Source: Methanotrichaceae archaeon
GTDB lineage: Archaea > Halobacteriota > Methanosarcinia > Methanotrichales > Methanotrichaceae
Assembly (NCBI GenBank): GCA_963813075.1
Contig: CAWEXU010000007.1
Coordinates: 1-64,000 of the forward strand
Length of the DNA: 64,000 nucleotides
Direction: 5' to 3'
Position numbers and translations under genes: made by a program. Of this stretch, positions 1 to 16,906 are shown in pieces. Each line of letters starts with the position of its first letter. The first letter of the stretch is position 1. The notes below the pieces were generated by a model that saw only the letters and a program-made list of their open reading frames with translations, searched no databases and was not told the origin of the DNA.

Positions 1-28
1 TCGGGGTTATCGTGGCCATGAACATGGA

Positions 29-439
29 GTTTCAATGGGGCCACTTCTTCTCAGAAATGGATAGTACTGTTCTGTGGATTTCGGAGATGGAGCCCACGGT
101 GTTTCAATGGGGCCACTTCTTCTAAGAAATGGATAGCGAGCTTCTCCATAATAATTCGGCAAAGCCCTGCCGAAACTGTTTCAATGGGGCCACTTCTTCT
201 CAGAAATGGATAGATCGTGGGGACCTCTGGGGAAAGCGCCCGGTTCAATGAACGAGTTTCAATGGGGCCACTTCTTCTCAGAAATGGATAGGAAAAAGAT
301 GGCATTGGCATCCCCGGCAAGGACGGGAAAGTTTCAATTGGGCCACTTCTTTGCAGAAATGGAAAGTCCTGGCCGTATTATATGCCTCTGCGGCATCCTC
401 TTCGTTTCAATGGGGCCACTTCTTTGCAGAAATGGAAAG
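29..439 (-). CRISPR. CRISPR array 1, leader-distal part (6 repeats; probably continues off the window start)
   Basis: 36-bp repeats GTTTCAAT(G/T)GGGCCACTTCTT(CT/TG)CAGAAATGGA(T/A)AG at 29, 101, 178, 256, 331, 404 with unique spacers; the minus strand ends in ATTGAAAC. Confidence 0.97.
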
Positions 440-517
440 CCATACGTGGATTCCAGTGGAACCAGACCGAGTAGGGTTTCCCATGGAAAACCAAAAAAAA
501 CAAATGCAAGAGACGAG

Positions 518-1837
518 CTATCCACCTCCATCAGATGACCTTTTCCGGTCGGGCTTGTCCACAGAAATATCTTCAAGCGCTCGCATGAGAGCCTTCTTCC
601 GGTTACTTTCGCTCATTCCATAAAAGGCATCTACAATTGCAGCTACCTTATCCGTCAGATGCTCATCCTTTAAAGAAGGTTCATGGCAGGACTCATTTCG
701 ACCCTTTTTCCTCTTTCTGCAACCAACCTCTTGGTAGAACTCCTGGTTGATCAGAAGATGATAAATTAGACAGATGAGCTTCCTGGCCACGGCAACTATT
801 GCCACGTTGTGCTCCTTCTTTTTGCTCAGCCTCTTGTAGAATCTGGACAGCGTTGTATTTTTCATATTAGCTATGGTCTGGGCAGCCTGGACAAGTACAA
901 CTCGAATATACTTGGAACCGCGTTTTGTGATTCCGCATTTCCTCTTTTTGCCGGCAGATTCATTTTCACCGGGATTGAGGCCACACCACTTCGCCAGTTG
1001 ATCCGGGGTCTGAAAATCTCTGTAGTCTCCGATCTCTGACAGAATGACTGAACCTGAGATAAATGCGATTCCAGGGATGGACATAACAATAGCCAAATCC
1101 GTGTTCTTCTTTTGAATCTTTTTCAGAACCTCAAGGCTTGTCTTCTCTATTTTGGATTCGACATTGTCCATGATTTCGAGAGCATCCCTTATCAGCATTC
1201 TATTTGTATCACTCAGTTCACTGGCGAGTGCTGATCTGATCTCGTCTTGTTTTTTCCTGATCTTTCCGCAGGGTATGCCTTTCAGGATCTCTTCGGTAGG
1301 GTTGTCTTCAGCCAGACCTCTTATGATATGTGTTCCTGATTTGCAGAATATATCGTCCATAGAAGAGCTGAGTTTAACGCCATTTGATGAGAGATATTTG
1401 TGTATCCGATTCTTGAACTGAGTTCGTGTCTTGACATATCCTGCTCTGGCTCGCGTTAGGTTCCTGAGTTCTCGGTCTTCATCGCAGAAAACCCGAGATC
1501 TCTTGATTTGATTATTCAAACACAGAGTTGCAATATGCTTTGAATCTTTTGAATCTGATTTGTCATTTGGAATGGACTTTATCTGCAGAGGATTGGCAAC
1601 AATGGTATCTATGGTTCGGCTCAGAGCATCATAAATCGGGATCCAATAGACTCCAGTAGCTTCGAATGCAACCTGTTCGCATTTGTTAGCTGCAAGCCAG
1701 CTTCTAAATCTATCAAGTTCGGATTTTGTTGTCCCAAAATTCTCTCGAATCGGCAGCACTTCGTCGCCTGCTATTGTGGCAACGATCAGATCTTTATGGA
1801 CATCTGCACCGCAAACTCTTTCTCTTCGTTTTTTCAT
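518..1837 (-). CDS. IS110 family transposase/recombinase (DEDD RuvC-like plus Tnp domain), 439 aa
   Basis: Motifs GADVHKD, FEATG, KSDSKD, IPGIAFISG, GLNPGENESAG (catalytic Ser region), AVARKL; likely start MKKRRERV at 1837. Confidence 0.95.
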   Translation of the reverse strand: MKKRRERVCGADVHKDLIVATIAGDEVLPIRENFGTTKSELDRFRSWLAANKCEQVAFEATGVYWIPIYDALSRTIDTIVANPLQIKSIPNDKSDSKDSKHIATLCLNNQIKRSRVFCDEDRELRNLTRARAGYVKTRTQFKNRIHKYLSSNGVKLSSSMDDIFCKSGTHIIRGLAEDNPTEEILKGIPCGKIRKKQDEIRSALASELSDTNRMLIRDALEIMDNVESKIEKTSLEVLKKIQKKNTDLAIVMSIPGIAFISGSVILSEIGDYRDFQTPDQLAKWCGLNPGENESAGKKRKCGITKRGSKYIRVVLVQAAQTIANMKNTTLSRFYKRLSKKKEHNVAIVAVARKLICLIYHLLINQEFYQEVGCRKRKKGRNESCHEPSLKDEHLTDKVAAIVDAFYGMSESNRKKALMRALEDISVDKPDRKRSSDGGG

Positions 1838-1849
1838 ATATGTCTCTGC

Positions 1850-1996
1850 CTGATATGGGCAGATGATCATTCCCTTATTGGGGATAATTTCCCATACGCG
1901 TTCTAAGACGCAGTCCCGTATTCGAGGGATAATGGCTGGTTTCAATCGCGGGATCAAGTGTCCCATAAACTTGTCAGCCTTCACTGCCCATATCAG
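1850..1996 (-). ncRNA. Putative bridge RNA/seekRNA of the IS110 element
   Basis: Non-coding region upstream of the transposase, closed by a perfect 13-bp inverted repeat (1850-1862/1984-1996), with two internal-loop hairpins matching target and donor sequences. Confidence 0.75.
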
Positions 1997-2068
1997 ACTT
2001 AACATGGACGGGATAAAATAACTGGTTTTCCATCCGTCACGTGTGAGCCCCTGCCTGGGCTCATGGGC

Positions 2069-3075
2069 GTTTCAATTGGGCCACTTCTTTTCAGAAATGG
2101 ATAGATCAGATCTGGAGAACGATAGGCAGAATATCACTGAGTTTCAATGGAGCCACTTCTTTTCAGAAATGGATAGCTGGCATGCTGGAATGTCGACTAG
2201 CCGATCATGCAGCGTTTCAATGGAGCCACTTCTTTTCAGAAATGGATAGCTCGACGAGTCAGGATAGCTCGATGCTAGACTCATAGATGTTTCAATGGGG
2301 CCACTTCTTTTCAGAAATGGATAGACGGAATCACGGCAGACTAATGCCAGCAATGCATAAGGGTTTCAATGGAGCCACTTCTTTTCAGAAATGGATAGTC
2401 GATAGCGACAGCATGGATGCAAGCTACAGATCAGTGTTTCAATGGAGCCACTTCTTTTCAGAAATGGATAGGTACAGCTATGAGATACCGACATTGCCAT
2501 GCAGATGTTTCAATGGGGCCACTTCTTTTCAGAAATGGATAGGCTATAGTTCGATGACATGTGCAATTACCAGCTAATAGCTGTTTCAATTGGGCCACTT
2601 CTTTGCAGAAATGGATAGACGGAGGACTAGATGAGACTTCACGCAGAGATACGGGTTTCAATTGGGCCACTTCTTTGCAGAAATGGAAAGGAATACTACG
2701 GGGGACTATATCGATGATAGCTAGACGCGTTTCAATTGGGCCACTTCTTTGCAGAAATGGAAAGGATAACACTGAGTGACTATGCTGATGGTCCAGCCTA
2801 ACGTTTCAATTGGGCCACTTCTTTGCAGAAATGGAAAGGTGGCAATGCCGGATCCGGTGATAGCGAAATCTATGCAGGTTTCAATTGGGCCACTTCTTTG
2901 CAGAAATGGAAAGGCAGTATGGTATGAGATCGTAATGTAGCAATCTCAATGGATTGTTTCAATTGGGCCACTTCTTTGCAGAAATGGAAAGGGGGTCACT
3001 CATGTACAATAAGTGCCTCCAGAGCTGCCGAAGCGTGTAGTTTCAATTGGGCCACTTCTTTGCAGAAATGGAAAG
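2069..3075 (-). CRISPR. CRISPR array 1, leader-proximal part (14 repeats)
   Basis: Repeats at 2069, 2141, 2214, 2289, 2363, 2436, 2507, 2583, 2655, 2729, 2803, 2878, 2956, 3040. Confidence 0.97.
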
Positions 3076-3323
3076 GGCCACGATTTTTGGGCCTTTACAG
3101 TTATCGAAAAAATGCTGATTTGCGAGAGCCTCGCTGACCTCTTACAGAAATAAGGGATCTTTTGGGCCTCATGCCTACCTATTCGCAAAGCAGAGTCTCT
3201 GCGAGAGGTTCGTCAACTTATCAGGATATTTTGACGAGTGCGTATGTCATCACGGGAGTTTTCGTAATACTGGCCCTTCGATAGCCTCTTGACCTCCCGG
3301 ATCCACTTACTTTCCATCGCTCC
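3076..3323 (-). promoter_or_regulatory. CRISPR leader of array 1
   Basis: Between cas2 and the first repeat; shares blocks with 7319-7586, e.g. TGCGTATGTCATCACGGGAGTTTTCGTAATAC and repeated CGAGAG motifs. Confidence 0.85.
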
Positions 3324-3620
3324 TCAAACTATAATAAACTTCTGCTCTTTCTCCTCATGATGCACCCCCAGGAACTCAATCCTCTCCTCAACCCTGCCCT
3401 CCACGGGTCCCAGATCGATGATCATCACCCGGTCCTCATCCTGGTCTATAAGCTCTGTGAGGGCTGTCACCATCTCTGCCCGGCCTTTAGCAGAAAGATC
3501 GCAGCGGAAGACGGAGTAGTGAACCGGCTCCCCAAAGCCCTTCATAGCCCTATGCACCCGACACAATCTCTTCTGCTCCCGGATGTCGTAGCTCACCACA
3601 TAAGCATTCAGTCCGCTCAT
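3324..3620 (-). CDS. cas2: CRISPR-associated Cas2
   Basis: YVVSYDI...GEPVHYSVF motif, 98 aa, downstream of cas1. Confidence 0.97.
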   Translation of the reverse strand: MSGLNAYVVSYDIREQKRLCRVHRAMKGFGEPVHYSVFRCDLSAKGRAEMVTALTELIDQDEDRVMIIDLGPVEGRVEERIEFLGVHHEEKEQKFIIV

Positions 3621-3627
3621 TTGAACC

Positions 3628-5349
3628 TCACCTGGTAACGAAGGCAGGATATTGCTTCAGTTCTCCTGTGAGAACTCTGGCCAGAAGCCTAGCCTGCACC
3701 TCCAGTACTCGCCGGTAGCTCACCTTGTACCCAAAAATGGGATGAGCTATCTCAGTCTGCAAACGCTTTTCATACCCGGCCAGAACTCTCTTCTTGGCCT
3801 CGGAAACCAGAGAGATTCCAATGCCGGTCCGGATGAAGTCGTCTGGTGTCAGCTCGCGATTATTGAATAGAGTTATGGCCACGGAGTCAGCGATCAGAGG
3901 CCTGAACTCCTCCATCATGTCCAGAGCCAGGGAAGGTCTGCCGTACCGGGGATGGTGATAGAATCCCAGGTATGGCTCGAAGCCCACCGCCAGTACGGTA
4001 ACAAACAGCTCCTTGGTCAGGACCCCATAGAGATAGGATAAAACGGCATTCACTGGGTCTCGGGGTGGACGCTTATTCCTGTTCTGGAAGGAGAAGTCGC
4101 CGGTGCCCTTGAGCATGCTGTCAAAGCGGCTGAAGTAGGCCTCCGCAGCAGCCCCTTCGATTCCGAGCAAGCTCGACATGCTTGAGACGGTCTCCGCCTC
4201 CCCGGCCAGCCGCTCCAGCTGATCAAGCACCTCCTGGAAAGCCGCAGGATCGTTCCTGCGCAGCATTATCCTGCAGTTTCTTACCTTGCCAGCCACCATG
4301 CTTCTGGCCAGTGCAAGAGATTTCTCCGGGTCGCGGGCCCAGTCGAATTGTCTTATTCTCAGCTCCACGTTCTTATGGCTCATGCCCTGGCAGATGCCAT
4401 AGTACCAGCCGCCGTGGGAAAAGTGCAGCACGGGGACATTGCGCTGCATCAGCTCCATCATGGCAGGAGTGGTGATCTCAGCGCCACCATAGAGGCAGAC
4501 CTTGGAGATAGCCATGATCCGGGCCTCGCTGATTTTGCCCTGATCATGGGACCAGACCTCCAGCCGCTCGCCGCGTTTGCGGATGATATGCCCCTGCCCG
4601 ACCACGAAGAGGGGAATTGTGTCGTCCCTGTCGGGAAGGAGCCTGCGGACCTTTTCCTCCTGCTCTCCATTGGGCCTTCTTTGCCTCTCTCCATTGGCTG
4701 CCATCTCTGCATCTCTCTCCAATTGTCTCTCCTGCAATGCGGTGATCTCATCTGGCATGCATATCCCGGCCAGAGAGCAGCGATCGCACCGTGAACTCCC
4801 GTACAGGGGCGGAGGCACTTCTCCCCGCTCGACAGTGCTTCGTAGATTGGCCAGAAGCACCCTTGTCCTGTCCAGCAGGGAAGCGTCGAACTTCACAGGA
4901 ACCCTTTCCTGGGAGCGGGTGAAGTAGAGCATGCCCTCGTCACACGAAAAGCCGTTCTCCCGCAGGGCCAGGCACTGAGCGGCCAGCTGGATGAGATGCG
5001 GCTCGTAGAGACCCAGCGGGGGCTTGGGCGCCTCTCCGCGCTTGTATTCTACTGGCGTGACTTTGTTGCCATCGCCCTCCAGAAGGTCGATCCGGCAGCA
5101 CACTCCTGCCTGGGGAGCCTCAAGCGAGACTGAGCGGGCATGGAAGGGCTGGAAGTCTCCGGGGATGGGATCCGCCTGGGCATCGATCCAGGCGTGCTGC
5201 CGTCTGCCGTCCACCGTCTCAGCGCTGTCCTGATGCTCTCCCTGCACCCATTGAAGGTAGCAGAGTCGCGGGCAGTAGGCGAAGGCAGCGAGCATGCTGG
5301 CCGGGATGAGCTCGGGAGCTGTGCTCTTGCTGAGTTCCTCGTTTGCCAA
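3628..5349 (-). CDS. cas4-cas1: Cas4-Cas1 fusion (type I-G/I-U-like)
   Basis: N-terminal YCPR, IDLLE, VEYKRG, CxxCSLxxIC; C-terminal GIEG, RPPRDPVNAVLSY, LALDMMEEFR. Confidence 0.97.
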   Translation of the reverse strand: MANEELSKSTAPELIPASMLAAFAYCPRLCYLQWVQGEHQDSAETVDGRRQHAWIDAQADPIPGDFQPFHARSVSLEAPQAGVCCRIDLLEGDGNKVTPVEYKRGEAPKPPLGLYEPHLIQLAAQCLALRENGFSCDEGMLYFTRSQERVPVKFDASLLDRTRVLLANLRSTVERGEVPPPLYGSSRCDRCSLAGICMPDEITALQERQLERDAEMAANGERQRRPNGEQEEKVRRLLPDRDDTIPLFVVGQGHIIRKRGERLEVWSHDQGKISEARIMAISKVCLYGGAEITTPAMMELMQRNVPVLHFSHGGWYYGICQGMSHKNVELRIRQFDWARDPEKSLALARSMVAGKVRNCRIMLRRNDPAAFQEVLDQLERLAGEAETVSSMSSLLGIEGAAAEAYFSRFDSMLKGTGDFSFQNRNKRPPRDPVNAVLSYLYGVLTKELFVTVLAVGFEPYLGFYHHPRYGRPSLALDMMEEFRPLIADSVAITLFNNRELTPDDFIRTGIGISLVSEAKKRVLAGYEKRLQTEIAHPIFGYKVSYRRVLEVQARLLARVLTGELKQYPAFVTR

Positions 5350-5638
5350 CTTTACAGCCTCCGGTAGATAAGGAGGATTGCATCCTAGATAAAGATATTT
5401 GACTGTTCACCTGGACTGAAGTCTGTATTGATGGCTAATACAGCAGGAATGTCATTGATAATTTTATATCTCAGTTTGCTTATCTGCGACCTGTTTTTAA
5501 CGAATTAACCGGCGTTTGATATGAAAATGGGCCTCACGCATATCGGTGCAACTGTTCCTGCATGCGATTAATGTTTCACGCATGCTCTCAACCCACGACC
5601 CATTTTCATGCCTTATGGGTGCCTGGCCAGGCATGACG

Positions 5639-7318
5639 GTTTCAATTGGGCCACGACTTTTCAGTCATGGATAGGCAAGATAGAGCGCGGCATTCTTGTT
5701 TGCTACTATGGTTTCAATTGGGCCACGACTTTTCAGTCATGGATAGTGCCTGAGTTTGCAGAAAGCAAACTTAAGAAAGTGGCGTTTCAATTGGGCCACG
5801 ACTTTTCAGTCATGGATACGCGAGATGATGATCGCCTGTTCAGGATATGGATGAGTTTCAATTGGGCCACGACTTTTCAGTCATGGATAGATTCCAGTAT
5901 TAAACAGGTTGAGTTCAGGAACACGTTTCAATTGGGCCACGACTTTTCAGTCATGGATACGGTCAGACGGCGCTATGTGGCGAGGCAACACATATGTTTC
6001 AATTGGGCCACGACTTTTCAGTCATGGAGACGTCAGCCGAGTCAATGTTGGGAACAAATAACCGTTTCAATTGGGCCACGACTTTTCAGTCATGGATACA
6101 TTGCTCGAGTCCAGGCGATGCGCACTATGCACCACGTTTCAATTGGGCCACGACTTTTCAGTCATGGATACGTTATGAGCTCGGCGCCTGTGTAGGGAAT
6201 CTAGTTTCAATTGGGCCACGACTTTTCAGTCATGGAGAGTAACACGATTAGGGCTACAGTGATGCGGCATAGTTTCAATTGGGCCACGACTTTTCAGTCA
6301 TGGAGACTCGCACACATCCACATGATGCTAGAATACGCGAGTTTCAATTGGGCCACGACTTTTCAGTCATGGAGAGACTGTGCGAATGTCGATAATGTCT
6401 ATGCAGAATGTTTCAATTGGGCCACGACTTTTCAGTCATGGAGACGGCGATAATGAAACAATGATATCGCGAAATAACGTTTCAATTGGGCCACGACTTT
6501 TCAGTCATGGAGACGTCAGATGACCAGTATGGTAATTGGCGATAGTATTGCAGTGTTTCAATTGGGCCACGACTTTTCAGTCATGGAGACGGCGATTGAC
6601 GCGGATACGGCATGGCATCCTAGATACAAGTTTCAATTCGGCCACGACTTTTCAGTCATGGAGACGCAACATGGATGCGATCTCATGAGATCCAGCATAT
6701 CGTTTCAATTCGGCCACGACTTTTCAGTCATGGAGACGACATGATGACTGTGATGAATAGAATGTCCAGCGAATTGTTTCAATTCGGCCACGACTTTTCA
6801 GTCATGGAGACGATATCGACTATGCAGGAACATTCATGTTCAGCAACATGTTTCAATTCGGCCACGACTTTTCAGTCATGGAGACTGCAGTAGTGCATGG
6901 TTAGCAATATCGAAGTCATCAGTTTCAATTCGGCCACGACTTTTCAGTCATGGAGACACGGGGAGATCAGTCATGAGCACACGCAACGCGAATGCATAGT
7001 TTCAATTCGGCCACGACTTTTCAGTCATGGAGACGCTCAAGCGATTGCCAGTAAAGCATTGACGCTTATGAGTTTCAATTCGGCCACGACTTTTCAGTCA
7101 TGGAGACTCTTATGGTCGTTATGCCATGATCGTAGCATTCAGGTTTCAATTCGGCCACGACTTTTCAGTCATGGAGACGGAATATGCAGACATGGTGCGA
7201 ATTGACGATATATGGTTTCAATTCGGCCACGACTTTTCAGTCATGGAGAGCAATGTCCGGCATAAGCGGAATAAGACCTAATGTTTCAATTGGGCCACGA
7301 CTTTTCAGTCATGGATAG
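5639..7318 (-). CRISPR. CRISPR array 2 (24 repeats)
   Basis: Repeat GTTTCAATT(G/C)GGCCACGACTTTTCAGTCATGGA(T/G)A(C/G), 32-41 bp spacers. Confidence 0.97.
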
Positions 7319-7586
7319 GGCGGCCATTTTTAAGGCCTTTAATGATATCGAAAAAAGGCCGATTTTCGAGAGGTTCGCCCGCAGATAAATTATTTAATTA
7401 GCGTGAGTCATTCTCGACTATCTAATTCAATATGCAGATCCTTTTCGAGAGGGTCGCTCACTCGGTAAACTAATCGGTTATGTGCGTATGTCATCACGGG
7501 AGTTTTCGTAATACCAGTTCTTTATCTCGCTGGCAAACCTCCCGGATCCACCATTAGCGCCAGTACCTTCAAACTATAATAAACTT
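7319..7586 (-). promoter_or_regulatory. CRISPR leader of array 2 with a cas2 3' remnant
   Basis: Homologous to 3076-3341, including TCAAACTATAATAAACTT (cas2 stop region) at 7569-7586. Confidence 0.8.
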
Positions 7587-7946
7587 GCGTTAGGGCTCAA
7601 AGCGATTCCATATCTGGACTTTTTAGCACTTGGCATAATAAAAATGAATAATATGCGGATCTATATATCAGGGAGCCTAATGTGATAGCCTTTTATGCCT
7701 ATAATATATTGCTTTTTGGAGATTTATATATTTAAATATTAATCCTAAATTTGTTTTAGCATTAAGGCCTTGACGAATAAAGTGATAGAAAGTTTTATAT
7801 TATGGATTAATACTATTAGCCCATACGCCTATAGCAGCATAAGTATCCGATTTATAAGAATACTGACATATACTGTTGGAAGAATAAAACATTATGCTAA
7901 TGTTTAGGCGAAAGTTTTATACACGTTTATTTAGAGTTAGTTAGCT

Positions 7947-8822
7947 ATGGATGCATCAGCTCCGGTACCACCGGCACTATCTAACCAGGAGAAAGCCGCA
8001 GCTGAGACAACCATATACCCCAAATGGGAACCTGGACCGGATCTAAAAATTCCATCTCTGCATCAACGTTTTTTCTCAATTATTCATCACGCCCGGAGAA
8101 CCCAAACCGCACAGATAGGCATCATGCTTTTTGCTCTGTTAATCCTTATTGGTCTTATTCTAAAATGGGATGAACTTCGACCACCCATAAGCTCACATGG
8201 CTTAACCCAATTATTGGCAGAAGTTATTCAAAAATTTTCTAGCCTATGGTATTCTCCAATATTCTTCGAGAATGATAACCCAGCATCTTCTAAGAGCCCC
8301 ACCACATGGATCGGCTGGCTGCTAAATGCGCAGTCGTTATTGGGTGTTGGAACACTTCTTGTTGCTTTCTTTGTCTGGTACGGCGAGATTCGTGAAGACT
8401 GGGAGAATACTCTGCCAAAGCGTATGAGTGTCTTCTTTCTTCATAAAGGCTTGCCGGTTATCGTCTGCCGCAATGTCTGGCTGGCCGGCGAAGGCGATTT
8501 GCGTGCATGGGGACAGCAGGTGGCTGCTCAATCAGTAGGCGAGCATATCCTTCACTTTTATCCGAATGTTAAGGCTCAGGATCCAGCATTGGCAATATGG
8601 GTAGACGGAAAGATCTGCAAGCATTACTCAGTATGCTTTGATCTCAAGGATATGGATAAAGATAAGGATCGAAAGCAAAATCTCTTTTTGGAAAAGTATG
8701 CAGGCTATTGCCGCTATCAAAATATGGCGAGTGACTCCAATATAGTCTCTTCCGTTCCCCTTGAATGCCTGCAGAGAAGGGTATCAGCATCAGTATTTCC
8801 TTTCGACTGGCCGAAAAACTAA
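7947..8822 (+). CDS. Membrane protein of unknown function (2 predicted TM helices plus soluble C-terminal domain); candidate type III ancillary effector
   Basis: Hydrophobic segments IGIMLFALLILIGLIL and LLGVGTLLVAFFVWY; intact ORF inside the cas island. Confidence 0.6.
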   Translation: MDASAPVPPALSNQEKAAAETTIYPKWEPGPDLKIPSLHQRFFSIIHHARRTQTAQIGIMLFALLILIGLILKWDELRPPISSHGLTQLLAEVIQKFSSLWYSPIFFENDNPASSKSPTTWIGWLLNAQSLLGVGTLLVAFFVWYGEIREDWENTLPKRMSVFFLHKGLPVIVCRNVWLAGEGDLRAWGQQVAAQSVGEHILHFYPNVKAQDPALAIWVDGKICKHYSVCFDLKDMDKDKDRKQNLFLEKYAGYCRYQNMASDSNIVSSVPLECLQRRVSASVFPFDWPKN

Positions 8823-8882
8823 GTCCAAACTAGACTTATGCCTTGGAAGCAATTCTGATCTTGGTCACTGCTCTAAGCTGCG

Positions 8883-9698
8883 TGTCAATGGCAATCTGAA
8901 ATTCCTCAATAGTGGCAAAGTAAAATTCCCCACCTGCAAATTCCTGAGATCGATACTCAGGAGTTATGTAGATGCTAACCGGGAGGGAGTTCCACATGTT
9001 GAGAGATTTGTTCAACGAGGGTTTAAGCATCAGCGAGATAGCTCGGCAGACAGGCTATGATCGCAAAACAATAAGAAAATATATAAATTCCGAAACGCCC
9101 CCAATGAGGAAAGAGCAGCCACGGAAATCCGGAAAACTCGATCCGTTTAAGGAATATATGTTGTCCCGACTGAATGAGCATCCTTTTCCGCCATGCGCCT
9201 TTATCGAGAGATCCAGGATCAGGGATTCACAGGCAAATACGGCATAGTCAAAAACTTCGTTCGAGAAATGAGACCTAAGAACGATGTTCCTGCGGTATAT
9301 CGATATGAAACAAAGCCGGGCGTTCAGGGTCAAGTTGATTGGGCAGAATGCGGCAAGATCGAGATCGATGGCAAAATAAGAAAGCTCTACTGCTTCACTA
9401 TGGTTCTGGGCTTCTCCCGCATGAGATATGCCGAATTCACGTTGCAGATAGACATCTTTAACCTTCTCCAGTGCCATCTGAATGCATTTAATTATTTTGG
9501 AGGTTATCCCCAGGAAATTATTGTGTGACAGTAAACATAAAAGGTGATAGTTACAGGCTCAAAGAACGCAGACGCCAGGGAATGATTCAGATTGCCTCTC
9601 CCAGCGTTATTCAGCCGGAGCCGCAAAATGGAAAAGTCTTAAGTAGACCTGGGGAAATTTCATTGCCATAATTGGGGAATTTTGCTTTGCCATTGACA
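8883..9698 (+). mobile_element. istA: Internally deleted IS21-family element with truncated, frameshifted istA
   Basis: TIRs TGTCAATGGCAA/TTGCCATTGACA; 5-bp TSD CTGCG (8878-8882, 9699-9703); HTH SISEIARQTGYDRKTIRKY and ETKPGVQGQVDW; no istB. Confidence 0.92.
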
Positions 9699-13787: not shown

Positions 13788-15012
13788 CTATTTCTGATCT
13801 TCTTCATAGCTTCATCGTTTGCATAATCCCAAATGCCCCATAGGGCCAAGCCGAAGCCGTCCCGTCGGTCCTGCTCATCATCACAGACCGATCTAAGCCA
13901 GAGGCTTTTGGCGAGAGCGGCGGCATCTACATCTCCGTTCAATCTCGAAGAAGTAGACTGAACCCGCAGGAACGAGCCTTCTAATGGGCTTCGGCCCTTG
14001 CTTGCCTTTTTCCAGGCACCAGCCTGAAATTGGCTTCCAGCGATCTATGCAAGCCGAGACTAGCTTCAGCTTCAAGCCTTTGGGCCAATAATCAGGGACT
14101 TCATCGTTTGGCCAACCATTTAGCCAACCTGGCTTCCATCCATCGGAAAAGATAGCTGGCGTTGCCAAAACCATGCGCACTTTAGTCTTTCCGTCTCAGT
14201 CCTGAGACTATTTCCTTGGGAAAGTTCCATCCGTCTTGAGTCTCATGCGGCTTTCCATTTAGCCAGTCGTCTTTCGCCTCCAAAGGTATTGAATGAATCA
14301 ATTTTCGCAGCCAGGTTACCAAATTCGCCTTGTGCCTCCAGTTTTGCTGCAAGCTGAATTTCCTTGTCCTGTGCCTTTAACAGAGAGATCAAGCCCGATC
14401 GTCTCGAAGAGCCTGCAATCTTTAGATGATCCGAGCTCTGGATCGATCATGACGTGAGTTCTAGGCTCTTTTTGGGGCAGATTTAGAAAATCCGTTCTGT
14501 TTTTGACGTCCTCAGGATCAGGAGGAGCTGCGAAGCATTCACCTTTGGCGTTTAACAGCCAATTTATCATGGTTCTCACGGACCAGAATGCAGGTATCTT
14601 TGCTGGCTTGAATTCCTCCACACTATTAGGCAACATGGACGGAAGCAGATCACCTGACGGAAGATTGCAGCCTTCTTTGTCGTTTAAAAGCCCCCTCATT
14701 GGCCGTATGGCATAAGCATGACAAATGCGCTTTTTGTTCTCCTCCTTGACTAAAAGATCCTTCGGCTTGGAAAAATAGATCCTACGATCATGAAAAGGCA
14801 GTGGCCCTGAGACAATAATGTTATTTAGCGCCGCAATAGTATAATCATCAAAGTTGCCATCCTTCATCTTGCCCAACATAGTCCTTAGGGAACCCGAGGA
14901 CCGATGGATAGGGCCAATCAAGGCCTTTCATGCGATTTCCAGCATTAAATGGGCGACCATCTCTGGCAATAATGGGATCATGTGGAGAAATGGAAAGGTA
15001 GACAACAGTCAT
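13788..15012 (-). CDS. cmr3: Cmr3 (frameshifted)
   Basis: GSLRT, RMVLATPAIFSDGWKP, ISGW, VPAGSVYFF, DGFGLAL. Confidence 0.88.
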
Positions 15013-16906
15013 GCTGAAACCTCCTTCCGACCTGGCGCATAGGCAATTTCCTTAACATCTGCGATACGTCTTGCCAAAACAAGCTCTTTTGAACGGCGAA
15101 TTAGATCGTCATAAGACTCAACACCATCCATCAGTTCATTGAGATCTACCGAGTTGATCTCCTTGGTTCCTTGCCCGGCCCTTTTGCGCTTGAGAAGTCT
15201 TTTGACATCCTTTATAAGAAAATCATGCGAAATGCCACCCCAACCACGATAATCCTCGGCCAGTTGACGCAAATCATAGGCTGCTTTGTCCGGCAGTCTG
15301 TCATTCATATGCATTTCCGTCCAAGACTTCAGGCGTTCATCCAATCCGTTTTCGCCTGCTTCCTTCCATTGCTCTCTTATAAAGATGGGTTCCCCGCCGC
15401 TTCGGGTGTGAAGGTGCACCGCCAGACCATTCCTGTCAGGATTCTTGGCGGCTTGTTCCGCCGCCCTTCCAAACAAGAGAATATCTTCAAGAGGTTCCAT
15501 TGAGTGGACAATGGCGACCCCAACTGAGAGGGTCAAAGGAATCCTTTTTTCATTATTACCGCTCGATCGCAGCTCTCCAAATTCATCGTGTAATTTTCTT
15601 GCCGTTTCCAGGCATGTATCAACTGGTAAGACTAAGATGTCGTCTCCCCCTGAAAAGACTACGCACCCGTGGTTGCCTTCTACGATCTTCCTGGCTTTTG
15701 AGGCAAACCCTGATAGACTGTTAGAGAATTTGCGATGCTCTTCTGCCGATTCTATAGTGGAGAGGGCTTTTCCCATGTGGTCTCCGTCTGCTACGATGAC
15801 TGCAAGGTAAGGATCTGGTTCACCAAATCCAAATCCACCGTTATCTTTTTTCTGAAGTCTCTGGACCTTCTCCTCTATTTGAATTAGTTTTTCCATATCA
15901 TCTGTGTAAGGATTCTCTTCTGAGGTGTCCACGAGAGATCCTTGAGATCTTTCTTGGCACTATCAAGTCGAGATGGATAGAAGATCTGCCCATCAAAGGG
16001 AAAATCCTGATAAAGCCTTTTGCCAGTTCCTGATGAGAAACTATTTTCGCCTTTGCATAATCTGCAATTTAGATCTAAAGGTTTATAATCGCATTCTGGC
16101 CTTCCTGGCAATTTGCATTGAACTTTGCAAAGATCTCGTATCTCATCAAGAAGCTGATTGGCATCTCTTCTGCGACTGCTCCTGATGGCTCGAATCCACG
16201 GGTCTGCAGCTACTCGAATTACAGATGGAAATGGGACCCGTCCTCCACCCAATCTCTTGGTCAGGCCAACGGCGCAAAGCTGTTCGCCATTACTTAAGCG
16301 CATACGCAAAACAAGCCATTTTGGAAGATCTTTACTTTTAATGAGCACGCTCTCACGAGCACCATCAAGCGATGATTTAGGTACGCCAAGTCGACCTTTG
16401 GCAGGTATAAAATCTCTAATTGATTTTCTTCCCGCCAACAGACGCATCAATCTTTTACGAGTCTCAAGATAAGTCTCTTTATCCTTTGGAAAGACCCAGG
16501 CAGAATTGAATTCAATTACATCGTCGATCTGTTCCTTCCAGATATCATGGCGAATCGCCTTTCTAGCCATTGCTCTTGCTTTTCCTGCAGATCGCTTCCA
16601 TTCTTTTTTGGCAGCCTTCTGCGCATTCTTGTCTATCGAAGCAGGATCAAGTCCCTCAGGCAGCTCTGCAAGAATTATATTTGAAACATTTAGTGCATCG
16701 AGGGAGTCTGAAGGGTCGAGATTCTCATTCCCATCTTTGAGATCCGGAAAGATCAATAATCCACCCGACTTAGCTATTTCCTTAGCAGCCGCCTTGCTGA
16801 TCTCCGAAAGCATATGAGATCCAAACCAAAGGTCTCGTGTGCGTCGGGCTGCAGCAATAAAATCCTGCACCGGGCCGATAGACAGAACATAAAGAAAAGA
16901 TGTCAC
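15009..16906 (-). CDS. cas10: Cas10/Cmr2 (one frameshift near 15900), no HD domain
   Basis: SIGPVQDFIAAARRTRDLWFGS, ADGDHMG, FSGGDD cyclase motif. Confidence 0.95.

What the first reader, a model, noticed from the sequence alone, without database searches (positions are those of the whole stretch)
440..2104. IS110 element whose bridge/seekRNA appears programmed to target CRISPR repeats
Seen: after a normal 36-bp spacer (440-475) the repeat starts GTTTC (476-480), is cut off by the IS, and resumes as a full GTTTCAATT... repeat at 2069, so GTTTC is duplicated at both ends. The upstream non-coding region is closed by a 13-bp inverted repeat (1850-1862/1984-1996). On the transcribed (minus) strand it contains GGCUG-[ACAAGUUUAU]-GGGA-loop-UCCC-[GCGAUUGAAAC]-CAGCC. 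One arm of this internal loop, AUUGAAAC, is the reverse complement of the repeat start GTTTCAAT (1939-1946); the other contains GUUU, the junction core. A second hairpin carries AUGGGAAA (1888-1895), complementary to the element's own junction TTTCCCAT (477-484). Known: IS110/IS1111 recombinases use such target- and donor-binding loops, and ATTGAAAC/G is a widely conserved repeat 3' handle. Inference: an RNA-guided transposon that homes into CRISPR arrays, gaining many sites per genome and possibly silencing distal spacers. Caveat: I see no clear left-donor guide match.
Basis: partly seen in the sequence, partly recalled or inferred. Interest (0 to 1): 0.93.

Follow-up and report, generated by a model that had tools for sequence, protein, structure and literature searches.

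The report
Bridge-RNA transposon that lands in CRISPR repeats
An archaeal jumping gene carries a small guide RNA whose 8-letter address equals the conserved end of CRISPR repeats, so it repeatedly lands inside the immune-memory arrays of methane-producing archaea.

Summary
Window 481-2068 is an intact IS110-family element on the minus strand. It sits in a CRISPR repeat exactly at ATT|GAAAC, in the 14th repeat from the leader, and points the same way as the pre-crRNA.

All 3 copies in this genome lie at the same position in CRISPR repeats. In related Methanothrix genomes 12 of 23 intact left junctions are in repeats. Among 72 unique metagenomic left flanks, 48 are in four different repeat families. 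The remaining copies lie at non-CRISPR sites that carry ATTGAAAC or a near match.

The 5' non-coding end encodes a bridge/seekRNA. Across 26 relatives with 14 different guides, the 8 nt on the 3' side of the first internal loop equal the left flank in 21 of 26. A second segment equals the element's right end, and the 5' side of the loop is complementary to the right flank. Two metatranscriptome runs of one study show a discrete RNA of about 140 nt over exactly this domain.

So the RNA-guided mechanism is supported. What is recognised is the 8-mer ATTGAAAC (best fit ATTGAAACTTG), not CRISPR context. In a complete relative, the sites used are not visibly biased toward CRISPR.

Two IS110-family copies on Thermus HB8 pTT27 also sit in CRISPR repeats. 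I found no paper that describes IS110 targeting of CRISPR repeats.

The parts
1..3075 (-). CRISPR array of 36-nt repeats. Read on the minus strand the repeat is CT[AT]TCC...GGCCC[CA]ATTGAAAC. The leader-like sequence is 3076-3323, next to cas2.
   Evidence: One search gives the repeat families and shows that leader-like 3084-3134 recurs at 7328-7378 after the second array. One search identifies cas2 at 3324-3620 and cas4g/cas1g at 3628-5349.
2069..2104 (-). The interrupted repeat, 14th from the leader. Its last 8 nt on the minus strand, ATTGAAAC (2076 to 2069), are the left target plus core.
481..2068 (-). IS110-family element of 1588 bp between the two GAAAC. The left end (LE) starts (C)GCCCATGAG and the right end (RE) stops at ...TTTTCCATGG(G).
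   Evidence: Searches find 3 copies at 97.6-100% identity. Searches show identical ends in all copies.
476..480 (-). Right junction GAAAC: the RE's last G, the core AAA, and the C of the original repeat. The spacer follows at 440-475.
   Evidence: and the junction variants.
518..1837 (-). Transposase/recombinase gene of 439 aa (P0001), stop codon included.
   Evidence: One search aligns it to IS621 (8wt6, E 5e-8) with the D, E, D, D residues and the ES(G) serine in register.
1852..1992 (-). Bridge/seekRNA of about 140 nt. It is a multi-helix domain closed by the 13-bp stem 1850-1862/1984-1996.
   Evidence: Searches support the structure. One search gives RNA-run depth of 2138-6766 in bins 1875-1992 and adapter-bearing contig ends at 1989-1994 and at 1852.
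1939..1946 (-). Left-target guide AUUGAAAC, on the 3' side of the first internal loop, directly next to the outer stem.
   Evidence: guide equals left flank 8/8 in 21 of 26 elements, with 14 distinct guides.
1967..1973 (-). Right-target guide CAAGUUU, on the 5' side of the same loop. It is complementary to AAACTTG.
   Evidence: read by eye: L038 9/9, L043 and L046 8/8 with an A/T covariation, L035 8/9. The non-CRISPR sites L055 and L074 have TTG after GAAAC.
1888..1895 (-). Left-donor guide AUGGGAAA, equal to the RE end ATGGG plus the core AAA.
   Evidence: the 8-9 nt after GAACGCGN match the RE end in the relatives whose RE was found (variants ATGCGAAA, ATAGGAAT, ATGTGAAG, ATGGTAA).
1913..1923 (-). 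RNA segment GAAUACGGGAC. It has the same sense as LE DNA 2035-2045 (CACACGTGACG). Its role is unknown; it may recognise the LE.
   Evidence: mean 8.08 of 11 within an element against 5.28 of 11 between elements.
2024..2035 (-). Sub-terminal inverted repeat GGATGGAAAACC inside the LE. Its partner is the RE terminus, 481-492 (CCATGGAAAACC on the + strand).
   Evidence: Read directly. The motif is conserved in the alignment.
2013..2021 (-). TATA-like TTATTTTAT, about 25 nt upstream of the RNA's apparent 5' end. This is an inference only.
   Evidence: Sequence, RNA end.

Best explanation
This is an active, RNA-guided IS110-family insertion sequence. Its 5' non-coding end is transcribed into a structured RNA of about 140 nt. 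One internal loop of that RNA carries two target guides. The 3' side, AUUGAAAC, has the sequence of the target's top strand (left target ATTG, core AAA, then C), so it pairs with the bottom strand. [quoted passage not shown] A multi-loop segment, AUGGGAAA, pairs in the same way with the element's own right end. The DEDD/Ser recombinase exchanges strands inside the AAA shared by the RE-LE junction and the target. No target-site duplication results.

The left guide together with GUUU is enough to give insertion. ATTGAAAC is also the conserved 3' end of the type I/III CRISPR repeats of these archaea. Every repeat is therefore a landing site whatever spacer follows, and arrays hold most copies of the 8-mer: about 94 of 119 in this genome. 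As a result the element accumulates in CRISPR arrays, always right at the repeat/spacer boundary and always pointing the same way as the pre-crRNA. It also uses scattered ATTGAAAC sites elsewhere, including the guide-coding DNA of other copies.

Shown here: the family membership, the insertion sites, the guide-flank covariation, and the presence of the RNA in RNA libraries. Inferred: base pairing as the cause of site choice, the internal promoter, the position of the crossover, and any effect on immunity.
For: 1. Own genome: 3 of 3 copies (97.6-100% identical) sit at ATT|GAAAC of CRISPR repeats, each with a different spacer beside it.
2. Related genomes: 12 of 23 intact left junctions are in repeats of 3 families. 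7 of the 11 others have exact ATTGAAAC and the other 4 differ by 1-2 bases.
3. Metagenomes: the scan gave 115 hits, of which 80 were fetched, yielding 72 unique left flanks. 48 fall in four repeat families. 43 of 71 testable flanks have a second copy of the last 24 nt 71-78 nt upstream. 61 of 72 have exact ATTGAAAC.
4. Covariation: over 26 elements of 40-100% protein identity with 14 distinct guides, guide equals flank 8/8 in 21. The mean is 7.73 against 4.53 between elements. In the four variable positions it is 3.77 against 0.89. The donor guide tracks the RE end. The 5' side of the loop tracks the right flank.
5. Structure: 83.6% of cells are paired against 30-42% when the 3' partners are slid. 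The closing stem is 95.6% paired with 3 pairs changed on both sides, and both loop-flanking stems are 89% paired.
6. Self-targeting: two independent copies are inserted right after the ATTGAAAC of another copy's guide DNA (L073, L096).
7. Expression: in RNA runs X15 and X16 the contig depth over 1875-1992 is 2138-6766, against 6-150 over the gene. DNA run X1 is flat at 16-21. Contig ends run into sequencing adapter at 1989-1994 and at 1852.
8. Enzyme: both Pfam domains are present and the catalytic residues align to IS621.
9. A metagenome contig of two unit lengths carries the RE-GAAAC-LE junction, which fits a circle or a tandem (L127/L128).
Against: No experiment: the pairing is inferred from covariation among related elements. 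These elements share ancestry, and the count of independent guide changes is closer to 10 than to 26.

The second donor guide was not found (and inspection).

The RNA evidence rests on assembled contigs from one study. The tool warns that contig depth is a poor measure of level, and a run from a second study (X17) shows no enrichment.

No joint across the circle junction and no empty site appeared in the four runs laid.

I see no preference for CRISPR beyond site supply. In G035, 4 of 6 full copies are outside arrays. Non-CRISPR ATTGAAAC is not depleted in this genome: about 22 sites, against 25 for the reversed word and a median of 49.5 for permuted words.

4 of 11 non-CRISPR junctions in genomes and 11 of 72 metagenomic flanks deviate from the exact 8-mer.
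Confidence: 0.85

Rival explanations
1. The element is a dedicated CRISPR homing element. On this view, site choice needs CRISPR context (repeat structure, Cas1-Cas2, Cas6 or array transcription) in addition to the 8-mer, and the guide was selected because arrays are safe, multi-copy and mobile.
For: About two thirds of unique metagenomic sites (48 of 72) and all 3 copies here are in arrays, and up to 4 copies sit in one array. The right-target guide is not matched by spacers, as if it had been relaxed. The insertion sits exactly at the repeat/spacer boundary and co-oriented with the leader. An unrelated IS110-family lineage on Thermus HB8 pTT27 also sits in repeats, 2 of 2 copies.
Against: Non-CRISPR ATTGAAAC sites are used freely: 11 of 23 junctions in genomes, and 4 of 6 full copies in G035, where arrays supply a large share of the 162 sites. 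Insertion into the element's own guide DNA needs no CRISPR context. Sister lineages with other guides land in non-CRISPR DNA.
Confidence: 0.1
2. The recombinase protein alone recognises ATTGAAAC. On this view the matching RNA segment is a coincidence or serves only as scaffold.
For: Only 8 nt are involved. GAAAC-like cores are shared by several sister lineages, which could reflect a protein preference for AAAC.
Against: The four variable positions upstream of the core change together in the RNA and in the flank across 14 guides (3.77 of 4 against 0.89 of 4). The same holds for the donor end. Relatives in this family have been shown experimentally to use such RNAs (PMC11208160 and PMC11187229, passages read).
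Confidence: 0.03
3. The ATTGAAAC inside the element is a captured piece of CRISPR repeat, for instance from imprecise excision, and not a guide.
For: It is identical to the repeat end. Elements that live in arrays could pick up repeat fragments.
Against: Only 8 nt match, not the neighbouring repeat bases. The segment sits at a fixed position in a conserved RNA fold. In relatives the same position holds whatever their own flank is.
Confidence: 0.02

Closest known systems
IS621 and other IS110-group bridge-RNA elements (Durrant et al. 2024, PMC11208160; structures 8wt6 and others)
   Same: The recombinase has the same DEDD plus Ser/Tnp architecture. The non-coding RNA is upstream of the gene. 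An internal loop holds two guides that pair with opposite strands of the target and overlap at a short core. A further guide addresses the element's own end. The natural target is a multi-copy sequence (REP elements for IS621).
   Different: The guide order is reversed. [quoted passage not shown] The donor guide lies in a multi-loop, not in a second simple internal loop. The core is A-rich rather than CT. The target is the end of CRISPR repeats. Protein similarity is low (E 5e-8, matched mainly in the Tnp domain). The host is an archaeon.
IS1111-type seekRNA elements such as ISEc11, ISPa11 and ISKpn4 (Siddiquee et al. 2024, PMC11187229)
   Same: The order of the target matches is the same: the complement of the top strand lies 5' of the bottom-strand match, as that paper states for IS1111 types. 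Sub-terminal inverted repeats are present (here 483-492 and 2024-2033). The abundant short RNA is about 70-170 nt.
   Different: In IS1111 types the non-coding region is downstream of the transposase gene; here it is upstream, as in IS110 types. This element therefore combines features of both groups. The known IS1111 targets are attC sites and transposon ends, not CRISPR repeats.
Tn7-like transposons that target CRISPR arrays in Cyanobacteria (Chacon Machado and Peters 2025, PMC11837452; abstract and passages read)
   Same: These are small, cargo-free transposons found repeatedly in CRISPR arrays on chromosomes and plasmids. The authors argue that arrays are safe and mobile landing sites.
   Different: That system uses a TnsD/TniQ protein to read the repeat and inserts at a fixed position in the spacer. 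It is a multi-gene DDE transposon in bacteria and has no guide RNA.
IS1000A/B of Thermus thermophilus (IS110 family; Blesa et al. 2019, PMC6352166, passages read)
   Same: The paper noted that 32 bp at one end of the ISfinder entry equal a CRISPR repeat. Here, both IS110-family copies on HB8 pTT27 sit in CRISPR repeats at one position (GTCG|CA|ATCCCC). Their LE contains GGGATTG, complementary to the repeat, and ACAGTATC, equal to their own RE end.
   Different: It is a different lineage, in a bacterium, with a different repeat and insertion point, and it lies antisense to the repeat orientation that ends ...ATTGCGAC. The paper did not read the identity as targeting.

Membership tests
IS110 family (DEDD transposases) | N-terminal RuvC-like DEDD domain plus C-terminal Tnp domain | tested here: met
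   PF01548 at 9.5e-22 (residues 65-206 of the long ORF) and PF02371 at 1.8e-25.
IS110 family (DEDD transposases) | Catalytic D, E, D, D residues and the Tnp-domain serine | tested here: met
   Alignments to IS621 (8wt6) and ISCro4 (9t56) put GADVHK, FEATG, KSDSKDS and NESAG opposite IDVSK, IEATG, KTDTVDA and YESGS. Which of these residues are catalytic is recalled, not tested.
IS110 family (DEDD transposases) | Site-specific insertion with no target-site duplication, with a short core shared by target and circle junction | tested here: met
   Ends are the same in all copies. Junction variants confine the shared bases to AAA.
IS110 family (DEDD transposases) | Circular intermediate with abutted ends | tested here: inconclusive
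   One metagenome contig of 3197 bp (two unit lengths) carries RE-GAAAC-LE (L127/L128). A tandem copy or an assembly loop would look the same.
Bridge RNA / seekRNA | A structured RNA from the long non-coding end is made | tested here: met
   Fold z-score -4.06. The conserved structure is supported. RNA-run contigs have depth 2138-6766 over 1875-1992, with adapter at both ends. The RNA data are contigs only and come from one study.
Bridge RNA / seekRNA | [quoted passage not shown] | tested here: met
   The left guide is supported. The right guide is supported by inspection (for example L038 9/9, and L043 versus L046 covarying). The two overlap at AAAC.
Bridge RNA / seekRNA | Guides for both halves of the donor (the element's ends) | tested here: inconclusive
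   The guide for the RE half is met. No guide for the LE half next to the core was found. Instead, a covarying same-sense match lies 33-43 nt inside the LE.
IS621-type bridge RNA architecture | [quoted passage not shown] | tested here: not met
   Here the long guide is on the 3' side and the donor guide is in a multi-loop. The IS621 rule is taken from the text of PMC11208160.
IS1111 group | Non-coding region and RNA downstream of the transposase gene, plus sub-terminal inverted repeats | tested here: not met
   The RNA is upstream of the gene. Sub-terminal inverted repeats are present (483-492 and 2024-2033), and the guide order matches the IS1111 type (PMC11187229).
CRISPR-array-targeting Tn7-like transposons | TnsABC plus TnsD/TniQ, with insertion at a fixed position in the spacer | tested here: not met
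   There is a single IS110 gene, and the insertion is at the repeat end.

The most novel reading that the evidence does not exclude
CRISPR arrays may be a recurrent, selected landing pad for bridge-RNA insertion sequences in both archaea and bacteria: the Methanothrix lineage here, and IS1000-like elements in Thermus. On this reading, matching the guide to the near-universal repeat end gives the element a safe multi-copy site in any host with such arrays, and a ride on array-bearing plasmids and viruses. It would also affect immunity. Each insertion places 1.6 kb directly after the 8-nt crRNA handle and in the direction of array transcription, so it could cut off the leader-distal spacers. It could also give Cas6-processed RNAs that carry a crRNA handle followed by IS sequence. 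Every copy of the element is flanked by handle-like sequence.
Probability: 0.3. Interest if true: 0.85.

Novelty: new variant of a known kind. Interest (0 to 1): 0.74.

Why it matters
Bridge and seek RNAs were described in 2024, and their known natural addresses are REP elements, attC sites and transposon ends. This finding adds CRISPR repeats as a natural address. The data allow direct tests: one family provides 14 naturally reprogrammed guides with their targets, an apparently abundant RNA of about 140 nt, and a guide order and gene order that mix the IS110 and IS1111 types.

For CRISPR biology, it identifies a mobile element that splits arrays at a fixed point and can occur several times in one array. 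In one case it sits between two different repeat families, so it could rearrange or silence parts of the immune memory.

It also shows a weakness of a one-sided address. Because the left guide alone suffices, the guide-coding DNA is itself a target, and copies do insert into each other.

Tried and rejected
- Rfam: no family matched window 1-8000 at E up to 1, so no curated model covers this RNA.
- Earlier notes of this scan: none for this genome.
- Second donor guide: a column-by-column scan of RNA against LE columns gave only noise apart from the known left guide and one LE/RNA pair. The segment after hairpin 3 (AAUGAUCAU) is complementary to ATGAT in some relatives, but it does not change when the LE reads ATGAG, so I do not call it a guide.
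- Cas6 processing or leader read-through as the source of the RNA's 5' end: not needed, because the RNA contigs end inside the LE, about 75 nt from the repeat. I kept this only inside the low-probability novel reading.
- Circle junction or empty site in reads: the four runs laid showed no joint from 481 to 2068 and no IS-free version of this repeat. These are contigs, so this says nothing about absence.
- Run X17 showed no RNA enrichment.
- Depletion of ATTGAAAC outside arrays, as a possible sign of selection: not seen.
- Contig C7 as a circle: its end shares four spacers with its start but diverges beyond them, so this is not a simple overlap.
- Supplements of PMC11187229 (6 files) hold none of ATTGAAAC, GTTTCAAT, Methanosaeta, Methanothrix or CRISPR.
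- Supplements of PMC11208160 hold ATTGAAAC only in unrelated scaffold positions, barcodes or flanks in the places shown, and no Methanothrix or Methanosaeta. One PDF in each set could not be read, some files were cut when stored, and only the first places of each term were seen.
- Two calls used a wrong reading frame and were corrected.
Full report
**What is at the locus**

Window 1-3075 is a CRISPR array of 36-nt repeats. Leader-like sequence lies at 3076-3323 and recurs after the second array at 7328-7378. It is followed by cas2 and a cas4g/cas1g fusion. Type III-B genes and a type I-G fragment lie further on. Read from the leader, that is on the minus strand, each repeat ends in ATTGAAAC.

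The 14th repeat from the leader is interrupted. On the minus strand the order is:
- ...GGCCCAATT|GAAAC|GCCCATGAG...
- 230 nt of non-coding left end (LE)
- a 439-aa gene at 1837-518
- ...TTTTCCATGG|GAAAC|
- the next spacer.

The protein has both IS110 domains. It aligns to the solved IS621 and ISCro4 recombinases with the acidic residues and the ES(G) serine in register. Which of those residues are catalytic is my recollection of the IS621 work.

**Where copies sit**

The genome is a bin rated 82.8% complete. It holds three copies, 97.6-100% identical, and all three are at the same point of CRISPR repeats with different spacers beside them.

Relatives with 77-93% protein identity occur in Methanothrix/Methanotrichaceae MAGs.
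- Of 23 intact left junctions, 12 are in repeats of three families and 11 are elsewhere. Two further 5'-truncated copies lie in arrays.
- Of the 11 non-CRISPR junctions, 7 read exactly ATTGAAAC. The rest are ATTCAAAC, TATGAAAC, GATGAAAC and CCTGAAAC.

A metagenome scan with a conserved 27-nt LE pattern gave 115 hits, of which 80 were fetched, yielding 72 unique left flanks.
- 48 flanks end in one of four repeat families (15, 16, 12 and 5).
- 21 are not in arrays.
- One is the guide DNA of another copy, one is an RE-LE junction, and one is too short to classify.
- As an independent test, 43 of 71 testable flanks have a second copy of their last 24 nt 71-78 nt upstream.
- 61 of 72 read exactly ATTGAAAC.

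**Not CRISPR context, but an 8-mer**

This genome has 119 ATTGAAAC sites. About 94 are repeat ends, 3 are the elements' own guide DNA, and about 22 lie elsewhere. The reversed word occurs 25 times, and permuted words have a median of 49.5. Three of three insertions in arrays is therefore what site supply alone predicts.

In the complete relative G035 there are 162 sites against 28 for the control word. Four of its six full copies are outside arrays. I see no preference per site for arrays.

**The ends and the crossover**

The five bases repeated at both junctions are not a duplication.
- One copy has CAAAC on the left and GAAAC on the right.
- Two copies have GAAAC on the left and GAAAT on the right.

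So the first base belongs to the left target or to the right end (RE). The fifth base belongs to the LE or to the right target. The exchange lies in AAA.

The RE terminus (481-492) and an LE segment 33-44 nt inside the element (2024-2035) form a 10-of-12 inverted repeat.

**The RNA**

The non-coding end folds better than all 200 shuffles. I aligned 26 homologous regions from elements with 40-100% protein identity. Their structure has these parts:
- a 13-14-bp closing stem
- an arm with an internal loop
- three small hairpins
- single-stranded joints.

With this structure 83.6% of cells pair, against 30-42% when the 3' partners are slid. The closing stem pairs in 95.6% of cells, with three pairs changed on both sides. 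The two stems that flank the loop each pair in 89%. Hairpins 1 and 3 are less well supported (62% and 69%).

**Guide-target covariation**

- *Left-target guide.* The 8 nt directly before the 3' strand of the outer stem equal the 8 nt left of the element in 21 of 26 cases, with 14 different sequences. The mean is 7.73 against 4.53 for mismatched pairs of elements. In the four variable positions it is 3.77 against 0.89. The two closest examples differ by one base in both guide and flank: CACAAAGA against CGCAAAGA.
- *Left-donor guide.* The 8-9 nt after the invariant hairpin GAACGCGN equal the RE end plus core. The variants seen are ATGGGAAA, ATGCGAAA, ATAGGAAT, ATGTGAAG and ATGGTAA. In 6 of the elements that have the motif, no RE match was found within the stretch searched.
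- *Right-target guide.* The 5' side of the loop is complementary to core plus right flank in most relatives I could read: L038 9/9, L035 8/9, L043 and L046 8/8 with a matching A/T change, and L037 8/9. It fits poorly in L042 and L049 (by eye).

For the window's element the 5' side gives CAAGUUU, so the best target would be ATTGAAACTTG. Two non-CRISPR sites do have TTG after GAAAC. One of them has a mismatch in the left half, as if the right half made up for it. In arrays the right half is spacer, so only GUUU can pair.

**Comparison of architecture**

[quoted passage not shown] Here the order is the reverse.

[quoted passage not shown] This element has the IS1111 order and sub-terminal repeats, but its RNA is upstream as in IS110 types. 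Durrant et al. also mention donor-binding bases in a multi-loop for IS1111 types, as seen here. I could not see their figures.

**Expression**

All runs available were assembled contigs, which the tool warns cannot show level, strand or ends.

With that caveat, in two metatranscriptome runs of one study:
- the contigs over 1875-1992 have depths of 2138-2815 (X15) and 5236-6766 (X16)
- the adjacent bins are at 32-210
- the gene is at 6-150.

The DNA run is flat at 16-21. Contig ends at 1989-1994 and at 1852 continue into adapter sequence, as short inserts do. This fits a discrete RNA of about 140 nt that spans exactly the stem-closed domain. A TATA-like TTATTTTAT lies about 25 nt upstream of its 5' end; the promoter is an inference. 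A run from another study shows no enrichment.

**Self-targeting**

Because the left guide has the sequence of its target, each copy carries a target in its own RNA gene.
- In G077 one copy is followed directly by another copy that starts just after that copy's ATTGAAAC.
- A metagenome contig shows an independent case with a different neighbouring sequence.
- A degenerate copy (L018) has a deletion that starts at the same point.

**A second lineage**

Prompted by a 2019 remark that one end of IS1000 equals a CRISPR repeat (PMC6352166), I looked at Thermus thermophilus HB8 pTT27. Both IS110-family matches on the plasmid lie inside CRISPR arrays, at one position of the repeat (GTCG|CA|ATCCCC). 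Their LE contains GGGATTG, complementary to the repeat across the core, and ACAGTATC, equal to their RE end. They lie antisense to the repeat orientation that ends in ATTGCGAC.

**Literature**

Six searches combining IS110, bridge RNA, CRISPR repeat or array, insertion sequence, Methanothrix, IS1000 and target site found no paper that describes IS110-family targeting of CRISPR repeats. A seventh search also found none, nor did the passages of one preprint that I read.

The nearest reports are the Tn7-like array-targeting transposons, which are protein-guided (PMC11837452), and the Thermus remark. The library lacks most subscription journals.

**Open points**

- The guide for the LE half of the donor is not identified.
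- An RNA segment (1913-1923) matches, in the same sense, LE DNA next to the inner inverted repeat (2035-2045). It covaries with that DNA across families: 8.08 of 11 against 5.28 of 11. Its role is unknown.
- Effects on crRNA production were not tested.

**Verdict**

The mechanism is an RNA-guided IS110-family element whose address is the repeat-end 8-mer. The claim of targeting CRISPR is right in outcome but not in specificity. It is a new natural variant of a known kind of system.

Noticed in passing
window 15012-15932 and 15887-16906 (-): Cas10/Cmr2 of the type III-B module reads as two overlapping ORFs. The C-terminal part matches TIGR02577 positions 333-510 and the N-terminal part matches positions 2-181. 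This could be a frameshift, a sequencing error or a split gene.
   Followed up: no
G000 contig C7 end (about 109986-110682) versus window 23-363: The array after the third IS copy shares four consecutive spacers with the start of the window: 95.9% identity over 342 nt, with differences that are mostly homopolymer lengths. The spacers on either side differ. This could be a duplicated or recombined array or a second haplotype in the bin.
   Followed up: partly
G000 C8 about 7900-9400 (locus L022), and five copies in G035 (L065-L069): This is a second IS110 relative (41% protein identity) with the same RNA scaffold but guide CACAAAGA. It is inserted at CCACAAAG|TCACAGA, partly inside another repeated element whose flank looks to me like a TnpB-type ORF, a label read by eye that no search call supports.
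   Followed up: partly
G000 C31:103297-103348 and C13:45181-45238 (L005, L006): These are solo fragments that resemble only the first 50-55 nt of the LE, preceded by ...GAAAC. No transposase gene follows them. They may be remnants or a small derivative.
   Followed up: no
L007/L027 (G080:C5): One IS copy has a repeat of family C on its left (...CCCGATAGGGATTGAAAC) and repeats of family B on its right (...AAAACAAGGATTGAAAC). Two arrays may have been joined at the element.
   Followed up: no
window 1867 to 1974: One RNA-run contig in each of X15, X16 and X17 joins 1867 to 1974, skipping 106 nt of the RNA domain, with a short side of 21 nt. It could come from a relative, from template switching at the inverted repeat, or from a real shorter form.
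   Followed up: no
window 1913-1923 versus 2035-2045: The RNA segment just before the invariant hairpin has the same sense as LE DNA next to the inner inverted repeat, and the two change together across families. For example, L063 matches 10 of 11 and L037 and L049 match 9 of 11. No known guide role fits.
   Followed up: partly
NC_006462 (Thermus thermophilus HB8 pTT27) 132970-147298 (L191, L192): Both IS110-family copies on this plasmid sit in CRISPR repeats at the same position. Their non-coding end holds sequence complementary to the repeat.
   Followed up: partly
metagenome contig behind L127/L128: This 3197-bp contig holds two unit lengths of the element joined RE-GAAAC-LE. A circular form, a head-to-tail tandem or an assembly loop would all give this.
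   Followed up: no
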